A stretch of 13,361 nt of DNA from Chthonomonadales bacterium (GTDB lineage: Bacteria; Armatimonadota; Chthonomonadetes; Chthonomonadales; Chthonomonadaceae). Below the pieces are notes generated by a model, which was not told the origin of the DNA, did not search any database, and worked only from the letters and a program-made list of their open reading frames with translations. The translations under genes were made by a program, and so were the position numbers. The DNA is taken from the NCBI GenBank assembly GCA_038217285.1, contig JBBQPO010000168.1, forward strand, positions 1 to 13,361, read 5' to 3'. Positions within the stretch are counted from its first letter, which is position 1, and each line of letters starts with the position of its first letter. Positions 4,961-12,505 of the stretch are shown here, in pieces.

Positions 4961-5086
4961 GGCAACCTCCTCTTGCATGGAAATGGAAGTAGTCGGCACA
5001 AAGACTACCTCCAAATAGACGTATGAACCTGACGAACAGGCAAAGCAACAGCGACGGTCTGCCGCGCGCGGCTAACACCGATAAGA

Positions 5087-5113
5087 GACGACGTAACTGG
5101 CTCGGATGTGACG
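5087..5113 (-). promoter_or_regulatory. Putative ECF promoter of the lipoprotein gene
   Basis: Minus strand cGTCACA-N16-CGTC(TC), one mismatch from the ECF41-type consensus TGTCACA-N16-CGTC. Confidence 0.5.
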
Positions 5114-5323
5114 ACAAAATTGAAAATAGGGCCGGTTCGCCGGTGTGCAGCCTGACCGGAACATAAATTTGGCGTTCGGCGTCGAAATTGACACCCGAGA
5201 CATTTTGGATACGTATAGGGATACAGAGGCGCGTTCTCTTACCAGGGCGCGCAACCCGGTCGGCAGGCACGGAGCGCCGCCGCAGCCGCGCACGACCCTA
5301 AATAAGGGGAGGAGTTACCTACG

Positions 5324-6782: not shown

Positions 6783-8744
6783 TTACTCCAATGCTGCCGT
6801 GCCCCACATCTCCGGACGACCCCAGACGCCGCCCCAGAACGACCAGGCCAACCGGGACTTGTTCACGTCTTCACCGACGCGCGCGTCTCTTTTGCCCGCA
6901 TGGTACAAAATGACATTAAAACCCAACTTGCGGCCCTTCACGGGGTGGAAGGAGGGAGAGGTATGCAGGGCTTTCCAGGGAATGCGCGCCTCCACGACAT
7001 AGCCCGATGCCGTGCGGCGCGAAGCCAGTCGAATGCCAGGCTCCTTCCTATCAGTAGGACCGGGATTCGCGTCAGCGTCGCGCGCGCCCCGAACATGCCC
7101 GGTCGTATCAGCAGGAAAGATGCCTAGTTTGAGCGTACCAAACGTGTTTTCAGATCGCGGACTTGGATCGATGCAAATTTCTGTACTGGTGCTGCGCCAG
7201 TGTGCTTTGATGTCGTCAGGGGCGATGTTGCTCACTACGATGTCATCGGTGACCTCGACCAACACCTGTATGCCGGCGTCGTCATATCCGACGAAAAAGC
7301 GTCCACTCACCTCCTGCGCACTGCCCGGCGTTCCTTGCGCCGTATTACCGGGGGGGATAGCGACGGGCTTCAGGGACAGTTTTCCCCATTTGGCCACGTC
7401 CGCATCGACAGGCATCGCCTGCGCCAGGCGTTGAACTCGCAGTTGCGGCAGTGCATCCAGTTTGCCTGTATCGAAGTCCGTCCCACCTTCAATCTGCGCC
7501 GTGATATCATAACTGGCAAGAGGGGTCGTCGAAGGAGCCAGGACTTGAAACGAGACCAGAACGGTTCTGCCCGGCGCCACCGCAAAAGGCTTTCTCGTCG
7601 CCTCGGATTTCCAGTCGGTCGGCAGTTTCAAGGCGACAATGCCCTGCTGTTGGGTTAAGGAACGATTGGTCACTTCTACGATGACGGGCGAGAAGGCGCC
7701 AAGGGTGACAGGCACATGTGCAGGAAGACGCGTCATCAAGCGTTCAATTCCATTGGTTCGCAGCCAATTCCGATAGTTGCGCACTGCCGGGCTGGATTGG
7801 ATGCGCGCCTCGACTGATCGGGTAGAATTGGGCGTTTGAAACGGTTCCTTAGCGGAGAAGGGGACTTCCCCCTTTGTATTGGCAAAGAGATCGGTTTCCC
7901 CGTGCGGATCATGGGCGACCCGCGACTTTACCAGGATAAAGCGATCCGGACGTGACCGAGCGTTCCCGGTTGGAGCCGTGCCAAAATACTTGTCGAATCC
8001 CTGACTGCGGTGATTGCTTTCAGCAAGACGGGCTATGTCCGTATAATGCTTGCCCGCCGACAGGATCGCCAGCGCCCCCGTTGCCACTCCATCGGTCTCT
8101 ACCTGTGTCTCACTATTCGCTCCGCCCCCCGCCCAGTAGAGTTTTTGGGCGCGCCAGGGAGCCAATCCTTCCTCTCTCCATAGTTCCGGGAATACTTTCG
8201 GGTCTGCTGCCGCTTCAAAGGCCTCCGTCGCCAATCTGCCAGCCGCTTGATGATGCCCATGCTGCCCGCCGCTCGGAGCCGCATCCATGGTGGCGATGAC
8301 GTCCGGCTTTAGAATGCGCACCAACCGCACAAGCCGCCGAAGTGTCTCGTCATGTCCCCACTTCGCCATCGTTGCCTGGACGCTCTCCGTATAGGCCCAG
8401 TCCGGCTGGTTGAGAAAGTAGAGATAGCGCGTACCGAGCAGAGTCAGGCAGCGTCGAAGTTCGGCCTCCCGCACGATCCCTAAGGCCGCGTGACTCTCTT
8501 TGCCTGCGCTATTTCCTCCGCCTTCCCCGTGTGTGCAGACGACCAGGGAGACAACGCGCCCTTCATCGGCATAGCGCGCCATTGTAGCCGCCATCATGCT
8601 CTCATCGTCCGGGTGCGCCGTGACGATAAGCAGATCGGTCTTCATCATGGAGGTGTTAGGCGGCACGACCTCCTGCGCTCCCACCCACTTCAGTGCGAGA
8701 AACAGCAGGAATGTCGTAAACCACACCGAAAGTTGATATTTCAA
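6783..8744 (-). CDS. Secreted PIG-L/LmbE-family deacetylase with NEW3-like and C-terminal CBM9-like sugar-binding domains
   Basis: Likely TTG start at 8744 after GAGAGGA, with a signal peptide ending VGA^Q. AHPDDE, THGEGG, REAEL and HGHH motifs. VEVTN...LKLPTDW...VAPG..VSFQV is NEW3-like. VDADVAKW...VGYDDAGIQVLVEVTDD...GYVVEARIPW is CBM9-like. Confidence 0.85.
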   Translation of the reverse strand: MKYQLSVWFTTFLLFLALKWVGAQEVVPPNTSMMKTDLLIVTAHPDDESMMAATMARYADEGRVVSLVVCTHGEGGGNSAGKESHAALGIVREAELRRCLTLLGTRYLYFLNQPDWAYTESVQATMAKWGHDETLRRLVRLVRILKPDVIATMDAAPSGGQHGHHQAAGRLATEAFEAAADPKVFPELWREEGLAPWRAQKLYWAGGGANSETQVETDGVATGALAILSAGKHYTDIARLAESNHRSQGFDKYFGTAPTGNARSRPDRFILVKSRVAHDPHGETDLFANTKGEVPFSAKEPFQTPNSTRSVEARIQSSPAVRNYRNWLRTNGIERLMTRLPAHVPVTLGAFSPVIVEVTNRSLTQQQGIVALKLPTDWKSEATRKPFAVAPGRTVLVSFQVLAPSTTPLASYDITAQIEGGTDFDTGKLDALPQLRVQRLAQAMPVDADVAKWGKLSLKPVAIPPGNTAQGTPGSAQEVSGRFFVGYDDAGIQVLVEVTDDIVVSNIAPDDIKAHWRSTSTEICIDPSPRSENTFGTLKLGIFPADTTGHVRGARDADANPGPTDRKEPGIRLASRRTASGYVVEARIPWKALHTSPSFHPVKGRKLGFNVILYHAGKRDARVGEDVNKSRLAWSFWGGVWGRPEMWGTAALE

Positions 8745-8768
8745 AGGTGTTCCTCTCTCGAATTGCTC

Positions 8769-8797
8769 ATTGTAGCATGAATACAAATTAATGGCGA
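8769..8797 (-). promoter_or_regulatory. Putative sigma70-type promoter of the PIG-L gene
   Basis: Minus strand TCGCCA-N17-TACAAT with an extended TG, about 25 nt before the TTG start. Confidence 0.55.
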
Positions 8798-8910
8798 CAG
8801 GACTGCCTTCCGTCTGCACAGCGGCTTTCGGCAGGAGAAGACTACCGCCCCGGCGAACTCTGGGGGGACCTATAACGGAAAGTAAACAGGTAAAATGAAT
8901 AGGATTTCAC

Positions 8911-8990
8911 CGCCTAATGTCCTCCGCTGTCACCACTGGGTGACAGAGATGGAAGGACAAGCCCCCGACGTTTACGTGGGGGTATCTGAC
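8911..8990 (+). mobile_element. IS200/IS605-family right-end relic (3' part of a TnpB-type omega/reRNA scaffold); no tnpA or tnpB in the window
   Basis: CAAG, then imperfect hairpin CCCCCgACG-TTTA-CGTGGGGG, then TATC-TGAC. It is preceded by a nested hairpin (TGTCCTCC/GGAAGGACA enclosing CTGTCACC/GGTGACAG). The layout matches IS200/IS605 right ends from memory. The left boundary is uncertain. Confidence 0.7.
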
Positions 8991-9229
8991 TCATCCGTAT
9001 CTCGACCCGTCGCGCCGCCGACACAACCCTGTTCGCCGAACTGACGGAGCGGGAGATCGAAGTGCTGAAAGAGGTGGCGACCGGCAAGCGCAACCGGGAG
9101 ATCGGCGAGACTCTGTTCATCAGCGAAAAGACCGTCAAAAACCATATCAGCAACATTCTGGCCAAACTGAATGCCAACGACCGTACCGAAGCCGCAATGC
9201 TGGTCGCCCGACACGGTCTGACCGAATAG
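8991..9229 (+). pseudogene. 5'-truncated NarL/LuxR-family response regulator (only linker and HTH remain)
   Basis: My translation: [78 protein letters not shown]. In-frame TGA at 8987-8989, no ATG/GTG/TTG before the HTH, no receiver domain. Confidence 0.85.
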
Positions 9230-9267
9230 TTTTCCATCATTATCAATTGACCGAAGGAGACGACGCT

Positions 9268-10029
9268 TTGTCTGAAACACCGATCCGTGTCACCGTGTGG
9301 GGCGAGAACCTGCACGAGAAGTCCCATGAGAAAGTCAAAGCCGTCTATCCCGATGGCATGCATACCGTGATCGCCGCCGGAATTCGGGAGAATCTAGGAG
9401 AGCGTGTTACGGTTCGCACCGCGACACTGGACCAGCCCGAGCACGGCCTTACAGACGAAGTGCTGCAACAGACCGATGTCCTGACCTGGTGGGGACATAT
9501 GGGGCATCATCTGGTCGATAACGCGGTCGTGGACCGGGTGCATGACCGCGTCTTGTCTGGCATGGGTTTGATCGTGTTGCACTCCGGGCACTGGTCGAAG
9601 ATCTTCACGCGGCTTATGGGGACCACCTGCGCCCTGCGCTGGCGCGACGATGACCGCGAGACGGTCTGGACAGTCAACCCCGGCCATCCCATTGCCGCCG
9701 GCGTACCGCCCGTTTTCCAGATACCAGAGCAGGAGATGTATGGCGAATATTTCGATATTCCGCAGCCCGACGAGCTGGTCTTTCTCAGCACCTTTACCGG
9801 TGGTGAAGTGTTCCGCAGCGGCTGCTGCTTTACGCGCGGGCAGGGCCGCATATTCTTCTTCAGTCCCGGCCATGAGACCTATCCGGTCTACTATCAGTCG
9901 GAGGTGCGACGCGTGATCTCCAACGCAGTCGGCTGGGCCTACTCCGCGCCGCGCCCGCGCTATGCGACCTCCACCTGCGTTCAGTCGCCGCTCGGCTGGT
10001 TTCAGCCGAAAACCGACAAGGCCGAATAG
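9268..10029 (+). CDS. thuA: ThuA-like (trehalose utilization) protein
   Basis: TTG start after [59 protein letters not shown] and [10 protein letters not shown] are typical ThuA motifs. Confidence 0.92.
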
Positions 10030-11950: not shown

Positions 11951-12505
11951 TCAGCGTCCGCCGATGATGCCCTGTTCAATCAGATAGTTCAAGATGCGAT
12001 CCGCCGATTCCTGGATGCTCTCCTGGCTGGTAAGCGCCGTCACCTCTGGATTTTCCGGTGGCTCATAGGGATCGGACACCCCCGTGAAGTTCTTGATCTC
12101 GCCTGCCAACGCGCGTTTGTAGAGGCCCTTCACATCCCGTGCGACGACCGCTTCCAGAGGGGCATGGGCAAAGATCTCGACGAAGGCGGCACGGCCTTCG
12201 CGCTCGGTTTCGGCGCGGATCTCCTCGCGAATGGCGCGGTAGGGGGAGATGGCGGCGGTGACGGCGAGAACGCCGTTGCGGGCCAGCAGACGTGCTACCC
12301 AGCCGATTCGGCGCACATTGGTGTCGCGATCTTCCTTGGAAAAACTCAGGCCCTGCGAAAGATGGGTGCGTATCTCGTCACCGTCCAGCAGTTCTACCTT
12401 ATAACTGCGGCTTCGAAATTCGGTGACCAGCGTTTCGGCCAGTGTCGATTTGCCTGCGCCGGACAGGCCGGTGAACCACAGGACAGCGCCCTGATGGGAA
12501 CTCAT
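11951..12505 (-). CDS. cysC: Adenylyl-sulfate (APS) kinase
   Basis: WFTGLSGAGKST P-loop, LLDGDEIR, ISPY, RDVKGLY and FTGVSDPYEPP motifs. Confidence 0.96.
   Translation of the reverse strand: MSSHQGAVLWFTGLSGAGKSTLAETLVTEFRSRSYKVELLDGDEIRTHLSQGLSFSKEDRDTNVRRIGWVARLLARNGVLAVTAAISPYRAIREEIRAETEREGRAAFVEIFAHAPLEAVVARDVKGLYKRALAGEIKNFTGVSDPYEPPENPEVTALTSQESIQESADRILNYLIEQGIIGGR

What the first reader, a model, noticed from the sequence alone, without database searches (positions are those of the whole stretch)
8911..9006. Orphan IS200/IS605 right end (TnpB omega-RNA-like scaffold) whose would-be guide comes from a LuxR gene
Seen: two stacked hairpins ending CAAG-[CCCCCgACG TTTA CGTGGGGG]-TATCTGAC, with no tnpA, tnpB or iscB in the window. 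Established: in IS608-type TnpA chemistry a tetranucleotide 5' of the hairpin base-pairs with the cleavage tetranucleotide (AAAG/TTAC, GAAT/TCAA); extrapolating that rule gives CAAG/TGAC, which is what is present. TnpB omega-RNAs end at the right end and take the next ~16 nt as guide, here TCATCCGTATCTCGAC. Inference: this is a decayed element, a MITE/PATE, or a stand-alone guide cassette usable in trans by a TnpB or nuclease-dead TldR-like protein encoded elsewhere, aimed at a response-regulator sequence. A TAAAAT at 8891-8896 could act as a -10 box, but there is no good -35.
Basis: partly seen in the sequence, partly recalled or inferred. Interest (0 to 1): 0.75.

Follow-up and report, generated by a model that had tools for sequence, protein, structure and literature searches.

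The report
Dead right-end scar of a TnpB transposon
This is an 80-base leftover of the right end of a TnpB-carrying jumping gene, sitting where a regulator gene was cut short; it has lost part of its guide-RNA fold, so it is most likely an inert scar.

Summary
Window 8911-8990 is the last 80 bases of a tnpB-only IS200/IS605-family element. It is 80 of 80 identical to fuller copies on two other contigs of the same genome. All six copies that keep the terminal hairpin end at ...TATCTGAC and then diverge.

Across right ends in this one genome the guide and cleavage tetranucleotides change together: CAAG/TGAC, GAAG/TCAC, AAAG/TTAC.

The guide-cassette reading is not supported:
- Twelve related elements share a covarying fold with a pseudoknot, and the window copy lacks the first stem's 5' arm and the pseudoknot strand.
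- No plus-strand promoter-like site was found.
- No TCAC-flanked match to the would-be guide was found in the genome.
- Intact alleles of the regulator in three other metagenomes read GGAGT, not TCAC, before the protospacer.

New here: the scar abuts TCAC, the family's insertion motif, and begins just after an internal AGAC. All six recent solo right ends examined abut their family's motif. This points to deletions started by the transposase at the left-end cleavage site.

This is an ordinary kind of object, and the scan has met such scars before on other DNA. Interest is low to moderate.

The parts
8907..8910 (+). TCAC: the family's insertion (transposon-adjacent, TAM / left cleavage) motif, directly 5' of the scar
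   Evidence: Left-end junctions of this family read TATCAC|, CCTCAC|, GTTCAC(C)|, CTTCAC|, GTTCAC| on contigs C194, C266, C390, C8 and C144. The full-length metagenome copy L045 reads TCTCAC|. The window reads GGATTTCAC|CGCC.
8911..8990 (+). 80-nt 5'-truncated right end of a tnpB-only IS200/IS605-family element. It holds the last 11 codons and stop of tnpB plus the 3' part of the omega-RNA scaffold.
   Evidence: 80/80 identical to C399 and C452, 79/80 to C228 and C280, 72/80 to L045. In the fuller copies it follows a TnpB C-terminus ...CLQCGLEANADFVGSRNIEARAELSDRLMSSAVTTG*.
8911..8914 (+). CGCC: what is left of the 3' arm of scaffold stem A (the stem-1 equivalent). Its 5' arm GGCGG and the loop carrying GTCAGA are missing.
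   Evidence: Stem A, alignment columns 40-45 with 56-61, is 97.2% paired and 4 of its 6 pairs change on both sides. The full copies read GGGCGGAACTGTCAGAC|CGCC.
8918..8959 (+). Stem B plus inner hairpin 1 (TGTCCTCC..CTGTCAC-CACTGG-GTGACAG..GGAAGGACA). It holds the tnpB stop codon TGA (8941-8943) and an internal TGAC (8941-8944).
   Evidence: Fold. Covariation: helix 65-71/105-112 is 95.2% paired with 5 of 7 pairs changed on both sides. L045 has CCGCTGC/GTAGCGG where the window has CTGTCAC/GTGACAG.
8958..8961 (+). CAAG: the 4-nt DNA guide 5' of the hairpin foot that pairs with the cleavage tetranucleotide TGAC
   Evidence: Pairing scheme from IS608 (C-3:G-35, T-4:A-34; PMC3201880 passages). Own-genome right ends show CAAG/TGAC, GAAG/TCAC and AAAG/TTAC.
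8962..8982 (+). Subterminal imperfect hairpin CCCCCgACG-TTTA-CGTGGGGG. It is the TnpA recognition hairpin and also the last omega-RNA stem, with its loop at -20..-17.
   Evidence: Helix 115-124/129-138 is 96.3% paired with 6 of 9 pairs changed on both sides. ISDra2 has a UUUA tetraloop at -20 to -17 (PMC10097598 passages).
8985..8990 (+). TCTGAC: the right cleavage motif (TGAC) and 3' strand of the scaffold pseudoknot. Its partner GTCAGA is absent from the window.
   Evidence: Columns 50-55 with 140-145 are 94.4% paired, against 12-43% when the partner is slid. Two pairs covary.
8991..9006 (+). Would-be 16-nt guide TCATCCGTATCTCGAC. It is simply the flank, inside the regulator's linker.
   Evidence: The only exact genome match is itself. 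The intact allele reads ...CTTCAGGAGT|TCATCCGT in runs X2, X3 and X4.
8993..9229 (+). 5'-truncated NarL/FixJ-type response-regulator gene. Only the linker and the GerE/LuxR helix-turn-helix remain, with no receiver domain and no in-frame start before the domain.
   Evidence: PF00196 GerE, E = 3.4e-23. A same-genus genome (G002) has the full receiver-plus-HTH gene. The receiver part gave no blastn match in this assembly.

Best explanation
Window 8911-8990 is a dead 5'-truncated right end (a solo right end) of a roughly 1.38-kb tnpB-only IS200/IS605-family element. That element is present in several near-identical copies in this Chthonomonadales-like genome.

In an intact copy this stretch does two jobs. 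As single-stranded DNA, the hairpin, the guide CAAG and the cleavage motif TGAC are the right-end substrate of a Y1 transposase (TnpA). As RNA, it is the 3' part of the TnpB omega-RNA scaffold, whose guide is whatever lies beyond TGAC.

The window copy has lost the left end, tnpB, the 5' arm of the first scaffold stem and the 5' strand of the scaffold pseudoknot. It can therefore neither move nor, most likely, load TnpB. The LuxR-derived 'guide' is an accident of position.

Probable origin (inferred): the deletion was started by TnpA at its own cleavage positions. The left junction is exactly insertion motif | internal AGAC-following sequence. The right junction is exactly TGAC | flank. The scar marks a strain-specific rearrangement that removed the regulator's receiver domain.

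My confidence by step: about 0.95 that it is a solo right end, about 0.8 that it is inert as a guide, and about 0.55 that TnpA started the deletion.
For: Identity and boundary:
- 80/80 identity to fuller copies that follow a TnpB C-terminus.
- 6 of 6 hairpin-bearing copies end at TGAC and then have different flanks.
- The full-length relative L045 encodes a 362-aa TnpB matching PF07282 and PF01385.

TnpA logic (scheme from PMC3201880 passages):
- Right ends covary: CAAG/TGAC (this family, C9, C19, C21, C46, C30), GAAG/TCAC (C62, C173, C81), AAAG/TTAC (C155).
- Left ends covary: GAGG/TCAC against GAGA/TCAT, and GGGG/CCAC against GGGA/CCAT.

RNA fold:
- In 12 related right ends, 93.2% of cells pair, against 71.3% in shuffles and 39-49% when slid. 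19 of 26 pairs change on both sides.
- The pseudoknot is 94.4% paired against 12-43% when slid.
- The layout matches ISDra2: a UUUA loop at -20..-17, and a pseudoknot formed by the bases just 5' of the guide (PMC10097598 passages).
- The window starts 3' of the pseudoknot strand.

No sign of use:
- No plus-strand promoter-like site.
- No TCAC-flanked target in the genome.
- The intact allele has no TCAC before the protospacer.

Site-specific origin:
- All 4 solo right ends of this family are preceded by TCAC. They are the window, C280, C23 and L044 (in genome G018).
- They begin right after internal AGAC (-80), TGAC (-125), TGAC (-46) and TGAC (-46) respectively.
- Only 10 internal GAC sites, 3 of them TGAC, exist in the last 557 nt.
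- Two recent solo right ends of other families (C5, G001:C24) also abut their family motif TCCAT.
Against: - The flanks are not contiguous in relatives. The left flank has no match in 4 of 4 same-genus genomes.
- The intact allele has GGAGT, not TCAC, before the right junction. A simple in-place partial excision therefore cannot explain the window copy; at least one more event on the right side is needed.
- In the two other-family remnants the internal breakpoints (CCCT|, GCGT|) do not look like the right cleavage motif TGAC. Pseudo-site cleavage is thus not general. Repair of a TnpA break through 1-2 nt of shared sequence fits them equally well.
- Two older remnants do not give clean junctions. 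C63 (92% identical) shows no TTAT, the motif I infer for its family.
- No cognate TnpA was found. The 4 Y1 genes sit among REP-like palindromes and not these ends.
- The 5' end of the real omega-RNA is unknown. That 80 nt is too short is argued only by analogy with ISDra2.
- The 82-bp repeat could have caused a chimeric join in the contig. Public contigs of run X1 do not cover 8810-8902 or 8996-9026.
Confidence: 0.7

Rival explanations
1. It is a stand-alone guide cassette. The scar is transcribed, and TnpB (or a nuclease-dead relative) made elsewhere in the genome uses it in trans to bind or cut a response-regulator sequence.
For: - tnpB copies of the same family exist in the genome. C228 and C349 hold C-terminal parts with the RuvC E and D motifs.
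- Left ends with the start of the element lie on C194, C266 and C390.
- The last two stem-loops and the cleavage motif are intact and 100% conserved.
- Published discussion says gene-less PATEs often encode omega-RNAs that must be used in trans (PMC10055086 passage).
Against: - It lacks the 5' arm of stem A and the pseudoknot 5' strand, both of which covary across 12 families.
- In ISDra2 the pseudoknot and stem 1 are protein-contacted parts of the 116-nt scaffold.
- No plus-strand promoter-like site was found.
- There is no TCAC-adjacent target: one exact 16-mer (itself), 3 sites with 2 mismatches and 24 seed matches, none after TCAC.
- The intact allele lacks the motif.
- Solo copies come in three lengths, not one functional unit.
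Confidence: 0.07
2. It is ordinary random decay. An element once sat here and unrelated deletions removed its left part and the neighbouring DNA, with no role for the transposase.
For: - The genome is littered with decayed tnpB elements. There are 14 zinc-ribbon matches, several short or broken, and 17 covariance-model hits.
- C452 has an internal deletion and C349 has lost the hairpin.
- The flanks of the window copy are not contiguous in relatives.
- No cognate TnpA was found.
Against: - Both junctions fall exactly on TnpA cleavage positions.
- 6 of 6 recent solo right ends abut their family's motif. For this family, by my own estimate, the chance is about 1/12 per copy given how the breakpoint is defined.
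- All 3 distinct internal breakpoints follow GAC, which has 10 internal sites in 557 nt.
Confidence: 0.15
3. It is an assembly artefact. The contig joins the left flank of one copy to the right flank of another through the 82-bp repeat, so the scar-next-to-LuxR arrangement does not exist in any cell.
For: - The repeat occurs at least 6 times.
- The assembly is fragmented: 459 contigs, all breaking inside this element.
- Run X1's public contigs leave 8810-8902 and 8996-9026 uncovered.
Against: - Each junction must still exist in reads. Even if the contig is chimeric, there is a real 5'-truncated copy after TTTCAC and a real TGAC|TCATCC joint lacking a canonical motif.
- An 82-bp repeat is shorter than usual reads.
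- The depths of the two flanks are alike, 7.45 and 6.39.
Confidence: 0.08
4. It is a mobile miniature element. Right-end-only units (46, 80 or 125 nt) are themselves cut out and pasted by TnpA.
For: - The 46-nt unit occurs with the same left boundary at two unrelated loci in two genomes, C23 and L044.
- Its internal TGAC lies 17 nt 5' of the hairpin foot, the same spacing as at the family's left end.
Against: - The only guide such a unit carries is CAAG, which would select TGAC targets. All four copies instead follow TCAC, the target chosen by the left-end guide GAGG.
- Each length occurs only once or twice.
Confidence: 0.04

Closest known systems
Non-autonomous tnpB-only IS200/IS605-family elements (IS1341-type), and their truncated solo right ends
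   Same: - A TnpB with PF07282 and PF01385 domains.
- Subterminal hairpins at both ends.
- Insertion 3' of a short motif without target duplication.
- The omega-RNA overlaps the tnpB 3' end.
- Decayed copies are scattered in the genome.
   Different: This family is not named or characterised. Its motifs are TCAC at the left and TGAC at the right, one base apart. The window copy is only the last 80 nt.
IS608 (Helicobacter pylori) TnpA end recognition
   Same: A 4-nt guide 5' of the hairpin foot pairs with the cleavage tetranucleotide, with the first two positions crossed (PMC3201880 passages). Here CAAG/TGAC, GAAG/TCAC and AAAG/TTAC follow that scheme.
   Different: - Spacing: the left cleavage site is 17 nt from the hairpin foot, against 19 nt in IS608.
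- The right site ends 8 nt after the foot, against 10 nt in IS608.
- No matching tnpA gene was found in this assembly.
ISDra2 TnpB omega-RNA (Deinococcus radiodurans)
   Same: - The UUUA loop of the last stem lies at -20..-17.
- A pseudoknot joins the bases just 5' of the guide to the loop of the first stem.
- The scaffold overlaps the tnpB 3' end (PMC10097598 passages).
   Different: - The scaffold here looks shorter, about 97 nt from stem A to TGAC against 116 nt.
- There is no sequence similarity, and Rfam has no family for it.
- The window copy lacks the first 17 nt.
PATEs (palindrome-associated transposable elements) carrying omega-RNAs for use in trans
   Same: Gene-less DNA carrying a right end and an omega-RNA scaffold.
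   Different: A PATE has both ends and is mobile. The window copy has no left end and an incomplete scaffold. Gene-less copies sharing upstream sequence (possibly PATE-like; no left end shown) were seen in relatives G050 and G013 but not here.
TldR-type domesticated TnpB with fixed guide RNAs
   Same: The idea of an immobilised guide next to a fixed target.
   Different: There is no adjacent tnpB-like gene, no complete scaffold and no motif-flanked target. Nuclease-dead TnpB homologues in this genome were not looked for.

Membership tests
IS200/IS605 right end | Occurs at the 3' end of tnpB copies with one sharp common boundary and unrelated downstream flanks | tested here: met
   6 of 6 hairpin-bearing copies end at TATCTGAC with six different flanks. 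Four fuller copies follow a TnpB C-terminus.
IS200/IS605 right end | Subterminal imperfect hairpin conserved as structure | tested here: met
   helix 115-124/129-138 is 96.3% paired, 6 of 9 pairs change on both sides, and the loop TTTA is conserved.
IS200/IS605 right end | A tetranucleotide 5' of the hairpin foot pairs with the cleavage tetranucleotide | tested here: met
   CAAG/TGAC, GAAG/TCAC and AAAG/TTAC across own-genome families. One relative (L039) ends TGAT with CAAG. Scheme from PMC3201880 passages.
IS200/IS605 element (complete) | Left end with its own hairpin, placed 3' of the target motif | tested here: not met
   The family has it. The window copy has only the motif TCAC and no left-end sequence.
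IS200/IS605 element (complete) | A Y1 TnpA in the genome able to act on these ends | tested here: inconclusive
   4 PF01797 matches, none on a contig with tnpB; they are flanked by REP-like palindromes, not these ends. The assembly is 95% complete.
TnpB omega-RNA (functional scaffold) | Complete scaffold including the first stem and the pseudoknot | tested here: not met
   stem A and the pseudoknot covary in 12 families. The window starts after the pseudoknot's 5' strand.
TnpB omega-RNA (functional scaffold) | Transcribed and bound by TnpB | not testable with these tools
   No RNA run holds the stretch. The promoter scan found no plus-strand site.
PATE / MITE | Both transposon ends present, with many copies of one unit length | tested here: not met
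   No left end is present. The solo copies are 46, 46, 80 and 125 nt.
TldR-like fixed guide | Guide matches a motif-flanked genomic target, with a nuclease-dead TnpB partner | tested here: not met
   no TCAC-flanked match; the intact allele has GGAGT before the protospacer. A nuclease-dead partner was not searched for.

The most novel reading that the evidence does not exclude
Solo right ends that abut the insertion motif are made by the transposase itself. TnpA would cut at the left-end site and then join it to an internal look-alike of the right cleavage site. This would be an undescribed, regular decay route of IS200/IS605 elements, one that immobilises omega-RNA genes. Copies that keep the whole scaffold, such as the 125-nt one on contig C280, would then serve as fixed guides for the family's TnpB in trans. 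The window copy would be the dead, over-trimmed version.
Probability: 0.12. Interest if true: 0.6.

Novelty: new member of a known kind. Interest (0 to 1): 0.3.

Why it matters
As an object it is ordinary: transposon debris that truncated a response-regulator gene in one strain. Two by-products are useful.

First, one genome gives a natural covariation test of the IS608 guide/cleavage pairing rule, at both transposon ends and across several families.

Second, every recent solo right end examined sits exactly against its family's insertion motif. If a wide survey confirms this, such scars are made by transposase-initiated deletion and not by random erosion. That would also show a simple route by which guide-RNA genes become fixed in a chromosome.

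Tried and rejected
RNA families:
- Rfam gave no match, either at gathering threshold on the window or by E-value on the full 3' region of L045.

Searches that led nowhere:
- One search was a mistake of mine. I sent the flank of C228 in place of the element, so its hits say nothing about the element.
- Empty-site orthologues for the C280 and C23 remnants: none was usable in 4 same-genus genomes.
- Flank contiguity for L044, C23 and C280 by translation was inconclusive.
- The family-wide search with the C19 element's 3' 400 nt (12 of 42 genomes matched) gave mostly full copies and gene-less, possibly PATE-like copies. It gave no further clean solo ends.

Sequencing runs:
- No RNA holder was listed for the stretch.
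- Public contigs of run X1 leave 8810-8902 and 8996-9026 uncovered, so the contig's continuity could not be checked.

Assembly limits:
- The N-terminal two-thirds of this family's tnpB is not in the assembly. The smallest contig is 1562 nt.
- The tnpB fragment at the end of C239 belongs to another family.

Older remnants:
- C63 and C435 (92% and 80% identical) did not give clean breakpoints and were left out of the 6-of-6 count. C63 does not show the TTAT motif I infer for its family.

Readings I dropped:
- The resemblance of the left flank AATAGGATTTCAC to the regulator's NRIS codons; I take it as chance.
- Abortive TnpB-driven gap repair as the source of motif-abutting remnants. TnpB cuts 15-21 nt away from the motif, so exact adjacency in all six would be unexpected.

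Literature:
- Three full-text searches and passages of PMC7290912 turned up no description of partial excision at internal sites, or of motif-abutting solo right ends. This does not show that none is in print.

Earlier findings of this scan:
- Nothing is recorded for this genome.

Full report
WHAT IS THERE

- CAAG at 8958-8961
- the hairpin CCCCCgACG-TTTA-CGTGGGGG at 8962-8982
- TATC TGAC at 8983-8990
- a second, larger hairpin at 8918-8959

Folded as RNA, 8909-9006 gives both hairpins at -38.8 kcal/mol with z = -2.9. None of 200 shuffles folded as well.

The window is a whole 13.4-kb contig (C168) of a 6.2-Mb, 459-contig assembly. A relative's record title names the group as Chthonomonadales.

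IT IS A REPEAT, AND IT IS THE 3' END OF A tnpB ELEMENT

A search of the own genome with 8780-9010 gave 8 matches including the window itself. I lined the copies up:
- Contigs C399, C452, C228 and C349 continue leftwards into an open frame ending ...TSRTCPECGYCDKANRKS..FRCLQCGLEANADFVGSRNIEARAELSDRLMSSAVTTG*. This is a TnpB C-terminus with the zinc ribbon and the last RuvC motif.
- C280 keeps 125 nt, the window keeps 80 nt, and C23 keeps 46 nt.
- All 6 copies that have the terminal hairpin end at ...TATCTGAC and then differ: TCATCC, TCGAAA, ACAAAC, TCGTCT, GAATGA, TCTAGG.

The window copy is 80/80 identical to C399 and C452 and 79/80 to C228 and C280. The truncation is recent.

The genome has 14 TnpB zinc-ribbon matches, none on the window's contig. 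The middle of this family's element is missing from the assembly because contigs break inside it.

A full-length relative, 87% identical, lies on two metagenome contigs (L045, L046). It is 1376 nt long and encodes one 362-aa TnpB matching PF07282 and PF01385. Its left end follows TCTCAC.

In the own genome the matching left ends sit at the ends of contigs C194, C266 and C390. Solo left-end pieces lie on C8 and C144. All follow TCAC: TATCAC|, CCTCAC|, GTTCAC(C)|, CTTCAC|, GTTCAC|. So the insertion motif (TAM) is TCAC, and the right cleavage motif is TGAC.

THE PAIRING RULE

Passages of He et al. 2011 (PMC3201880) state the IS608 scheme. Four bases 5' of the hairpin foot pair with the cleavage tetranucleotide, and the first two positions cross (C-3 with G-35, T-4 with A-34).

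By that scheme CAAG reads TGAC. The tnpB families of this one genome give a natural test.

Right ends:
- CAAG/TGAC in this family and in C9, C19, C21, C46 and C30
- GAAG/TCAC in C62, C173 and C81
- AAAG/TTAC in C155

Left ends:
- GAGG/TCAC in six copies, against GAGA/TCAT in three (C82, C92, C407)
- GGGG/CCAC in C19, against GGGA/CCAT in C9 and L084

One relative (L039) ends TGAT with CAAG and does not fit.

THE RNA FOLD, AND WHAT THE WINDOW COPY LACKS

I aligned the last 130 nt of 12 related right ends from this genome, four relatives and L045. The consensus fold has three parts:
- stem A (GGGCGG / CCGCCT)
- stem B enclosing a variable hairpin
- the terminal hairpin

Counted on the alignment:
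- 93.2% of cells pair, against 71.3% in shuffles (0 of 500 reach it) and 39-49% when partners are slid.
- 19 of 26 pairs change on both sides.

The structure came from this same alignment, which favours it. The slid controls and the compensatory changes are nonetheless strong.

The loop of stem A holds GTCAGA, complementary to the last six bases TCTGAC. That pseudoknot is 94.4% paired, against 12-43% when slid. It covaries at two pairs: GC 8, AU 2, GU 2; and AU 5, CG 4, UA 1.

This matches the solved ISDra2 omega-RNA as described in passages of Nakagawa et al. 2023 (PMC10097598):
- a 116-nt scaffold
- a UUUA loop at -20 to -17, the same position as TTTA here
- a pseudoknot between the bases just 5' of the guide and the loop region of stem 1
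- stem 1 and the pseudoknot contacted by the protein

By that analogy the scaffold here runs from about -97 to -1.

The window copy starts at -80. It keeps only CGCC of stem A's 3' arm and lacks both the 5' arm and the pseudoknot strand. The flank supplies no GTCAG.

That 80 nt is too little is an inference. The true 5' end of this RNA is unknown.

IS THE 'GUIDE' AIMED AT ANYTHING?

The 16 bases after 8990 lie in the linker of a NarL/FixJ-type regulator. Of that gene only the linker and the GerE helix-turn-helix remain (PF00196, E = 3.4e-23). A same-genus genome (G002) has the full receiver-plus-HTH gene.

In the own genome:
- The only exact 16-mer match is the flank itself.
- Three sites have 2 mismatches.
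- 24 other sites match the 12-nt seed with at most 1 mismatch.
- None of these follows TCAC.

Public contigs of three other metagenome runs (X2, X3, X4) carry the uninterrupted allele...GGTATTGCCGCCCGGGTGCTTCAGGAGT|TCATCCGT. Even the intact gene therefore lacks the motif a TnpB of this family would need.

No plus-strand promoter-like site lies in 8650-9300. The one site found, at 8797 to 8769, is on the minus strand and faces the PIG-L/CBM9 gene. The TAAAAT at 8891-8896 is there but has no partner hexamer. No RNA run holds the stretch, which says nothing either way.

HOW THE SCAR AROSE

The junctions are not random. In each solo right end of this family, the base before the homology is the end of a TCAC. 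The homology begins right after an internal GAC of the full element:

| Copy | Solo-copy junction | Same place in the full element |
|---|---|---|
| window | GGATTTCAC\|CGCC | CTGTCAGAC\|CGCC |
| C280 | CAGATTCAC\|TTTGTT | AATGCTGAC\|TTTGTT |
| C23 | ACGGTCAC\|AGAG | GGGTGAC\|AGAG |
| L044 (genome G018) | AAGTTCAC\|AGAG | GGGTGAC\|AGAG |

The last 557 nt hold only 10 internal GAC sites, 3 of them TGAC. The sites used are -125 (TGAC), -80 (AGAC) and -46 (TGAC).

The -46 site lies 17 nt 5' of the hairpin foot. That is the same spacing as between TCAC and the left-end hairpin.

Two recent solo right ends of other families also abut their family's motif. C5 reads GATCCAT|AATG and G001:C24 reads GGTCCAT|AGGG, and TCCAT is the motif at the C9 and L084 left ends. 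That makes 6 of 6.

In those two, however, the internal breakpoints (CCCT|, GCGT|) do not resemble TGAC.

Two older remnants, C63 (92%) and C435 (80%), gave no clean breakpoint. I left them out of the count, and C63 does not show the TTAT motif I infer for its family.

My reading is as follows. TnpA cuts at the left-end junction. The freed motif end is then joined inside the element. In this family the join is at look-alikes of the right cleavage site, selected by the right-end guide CAAG. Elsewhere it may use one or two bases of shared sequence.

This is inference. No cognate tnpA was found. The 4 Y1 genes sit among REP-like palindromes.

WHAT DOES NOT FIT

For the window copy the two flanks were never neighbours:
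- The left flank (8.9 kb, ending with the promoter region of a PIG-L/CBM9 gene) has no match in 4 of 4 same-genus genomes.
- The DNA that lies upstream of the regulator in G002 is on another contig, C94. Homology there stops about 250 nt before the gene, at a TTCAC in G002.
- The receiver domain gave no blastn match in the assembly.
- The intact allele has GGAGT, not TCAC, before the right junction.

So the joint TGAC|TCATCC is not a canonical insertion joint. A second event, again starting exactly at a TnpA cleavage position, must have removed DNA to the right of the element. Alternatively, the contig is a chimeric join through the 82-bp repeat; could not settle this. Either way both junction sequences exist in the data.

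COMPARISON WITH WHAT IS KNOWN, AND VERDICT

This is a truncated solo right end of an uncharacterised tnpB-only IS200/IS605 element. It is a new member of a known kind.

Gene-less elements that carry omega-RNAs for use in trans are discussed in print (PMC10055086 passage). Those are PATEs with both ends, which this is not.

The scan has met such scars on other DNA before and judged them debris. None of those notes mentions motif adjacency.

Three full-text searches found no description of motif-abutting solo right ends or of partial excision at internal sites. That is not proof of absence.

The object is ordinary. The regularity of the junctions is the one thing worth a systematic follow-up.

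Noticed in passing
G000 contig C280:944-1069 (locus L004): A 125-nt solo right end of the same family. It keeps stem A, the pseudoknot strand and all later stems, so it may hold a complete omega-RNA scaffold. It follows ATTCAC, and its would-be guide is TCGTCTATGGCCGTAT. It is a better candidate for a trans-used orphan guide than the window copy.
   Followed up: partly
G000 contig C349, about 5022-5277, minus strand (locus L007): A tnpB 3' end in which the terminal hairpin and TATC are cleanly missing (...GGAAGGACAG|TGAC|flank). This copy cannot be recognised by TnpA.
   Followed up: no
G000 contig C15:37188-37313 and downstream: A related right end whose terminal hairpin loop is interrupted by about 170 nt of other sequence. 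It then resumes as ...TTTAGGCGGGGGTCTGAC. This looks like a nested insertion.
   Followed up: no
G000 contig C94, about 12278-12300: Homology to the region upstream of the regulator in G002 ends where G002 has ATCGTTCAC. C94 reads GATCGTTAC followed by AGATT, the first five bases of this family's left end. It may be a trace of the other side of the same rearrangement, or chance.
   Followed up: partly
Loci L086 and L091 (G050), L087 (G013), L082 (G064): Right ends with this scaffold but no tnpB upstream. The two G050 copies share about 230 nt of upstream sequence, and the G013 copy has a similar stretch just 5' of stem A; L082 does not. They may be PATE-like, but no left end was shown.
   Followed up: no
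G020:C234:6208-6292 and G018:C259:4988-5035: Stretches 100% identical to this family's element lie in genomes assigned to other genera. This suggests recent horizontal spread, or cross-binning of metagenome contigs.
   Followed up: no
G000 contigs C119, C104, C375, C220: The only four Y1 (PF01797) genes are flanked by REP-like palindromes such as GGGGTGAYAACCCC. They look like REP-associated transposases and not partners of the tnpB elements. No cognate tnpA was seen for any of the tnpB families.
   Followed up: partly
Right flanks of the family's copies: 5 of 8 right flanks begin with TC: the window, C399, C280, C23 and L044. This may be a target preference just 3' of TCAC, or chance.
   Followed up: no
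G000 contig C81 upstream region and about 20 contig ends: A different repeat of about 95 nt, 94-100% identical, sits at many contig ends. It is another multi-copy mobile element that fragments the assembly.
   Followed up: no
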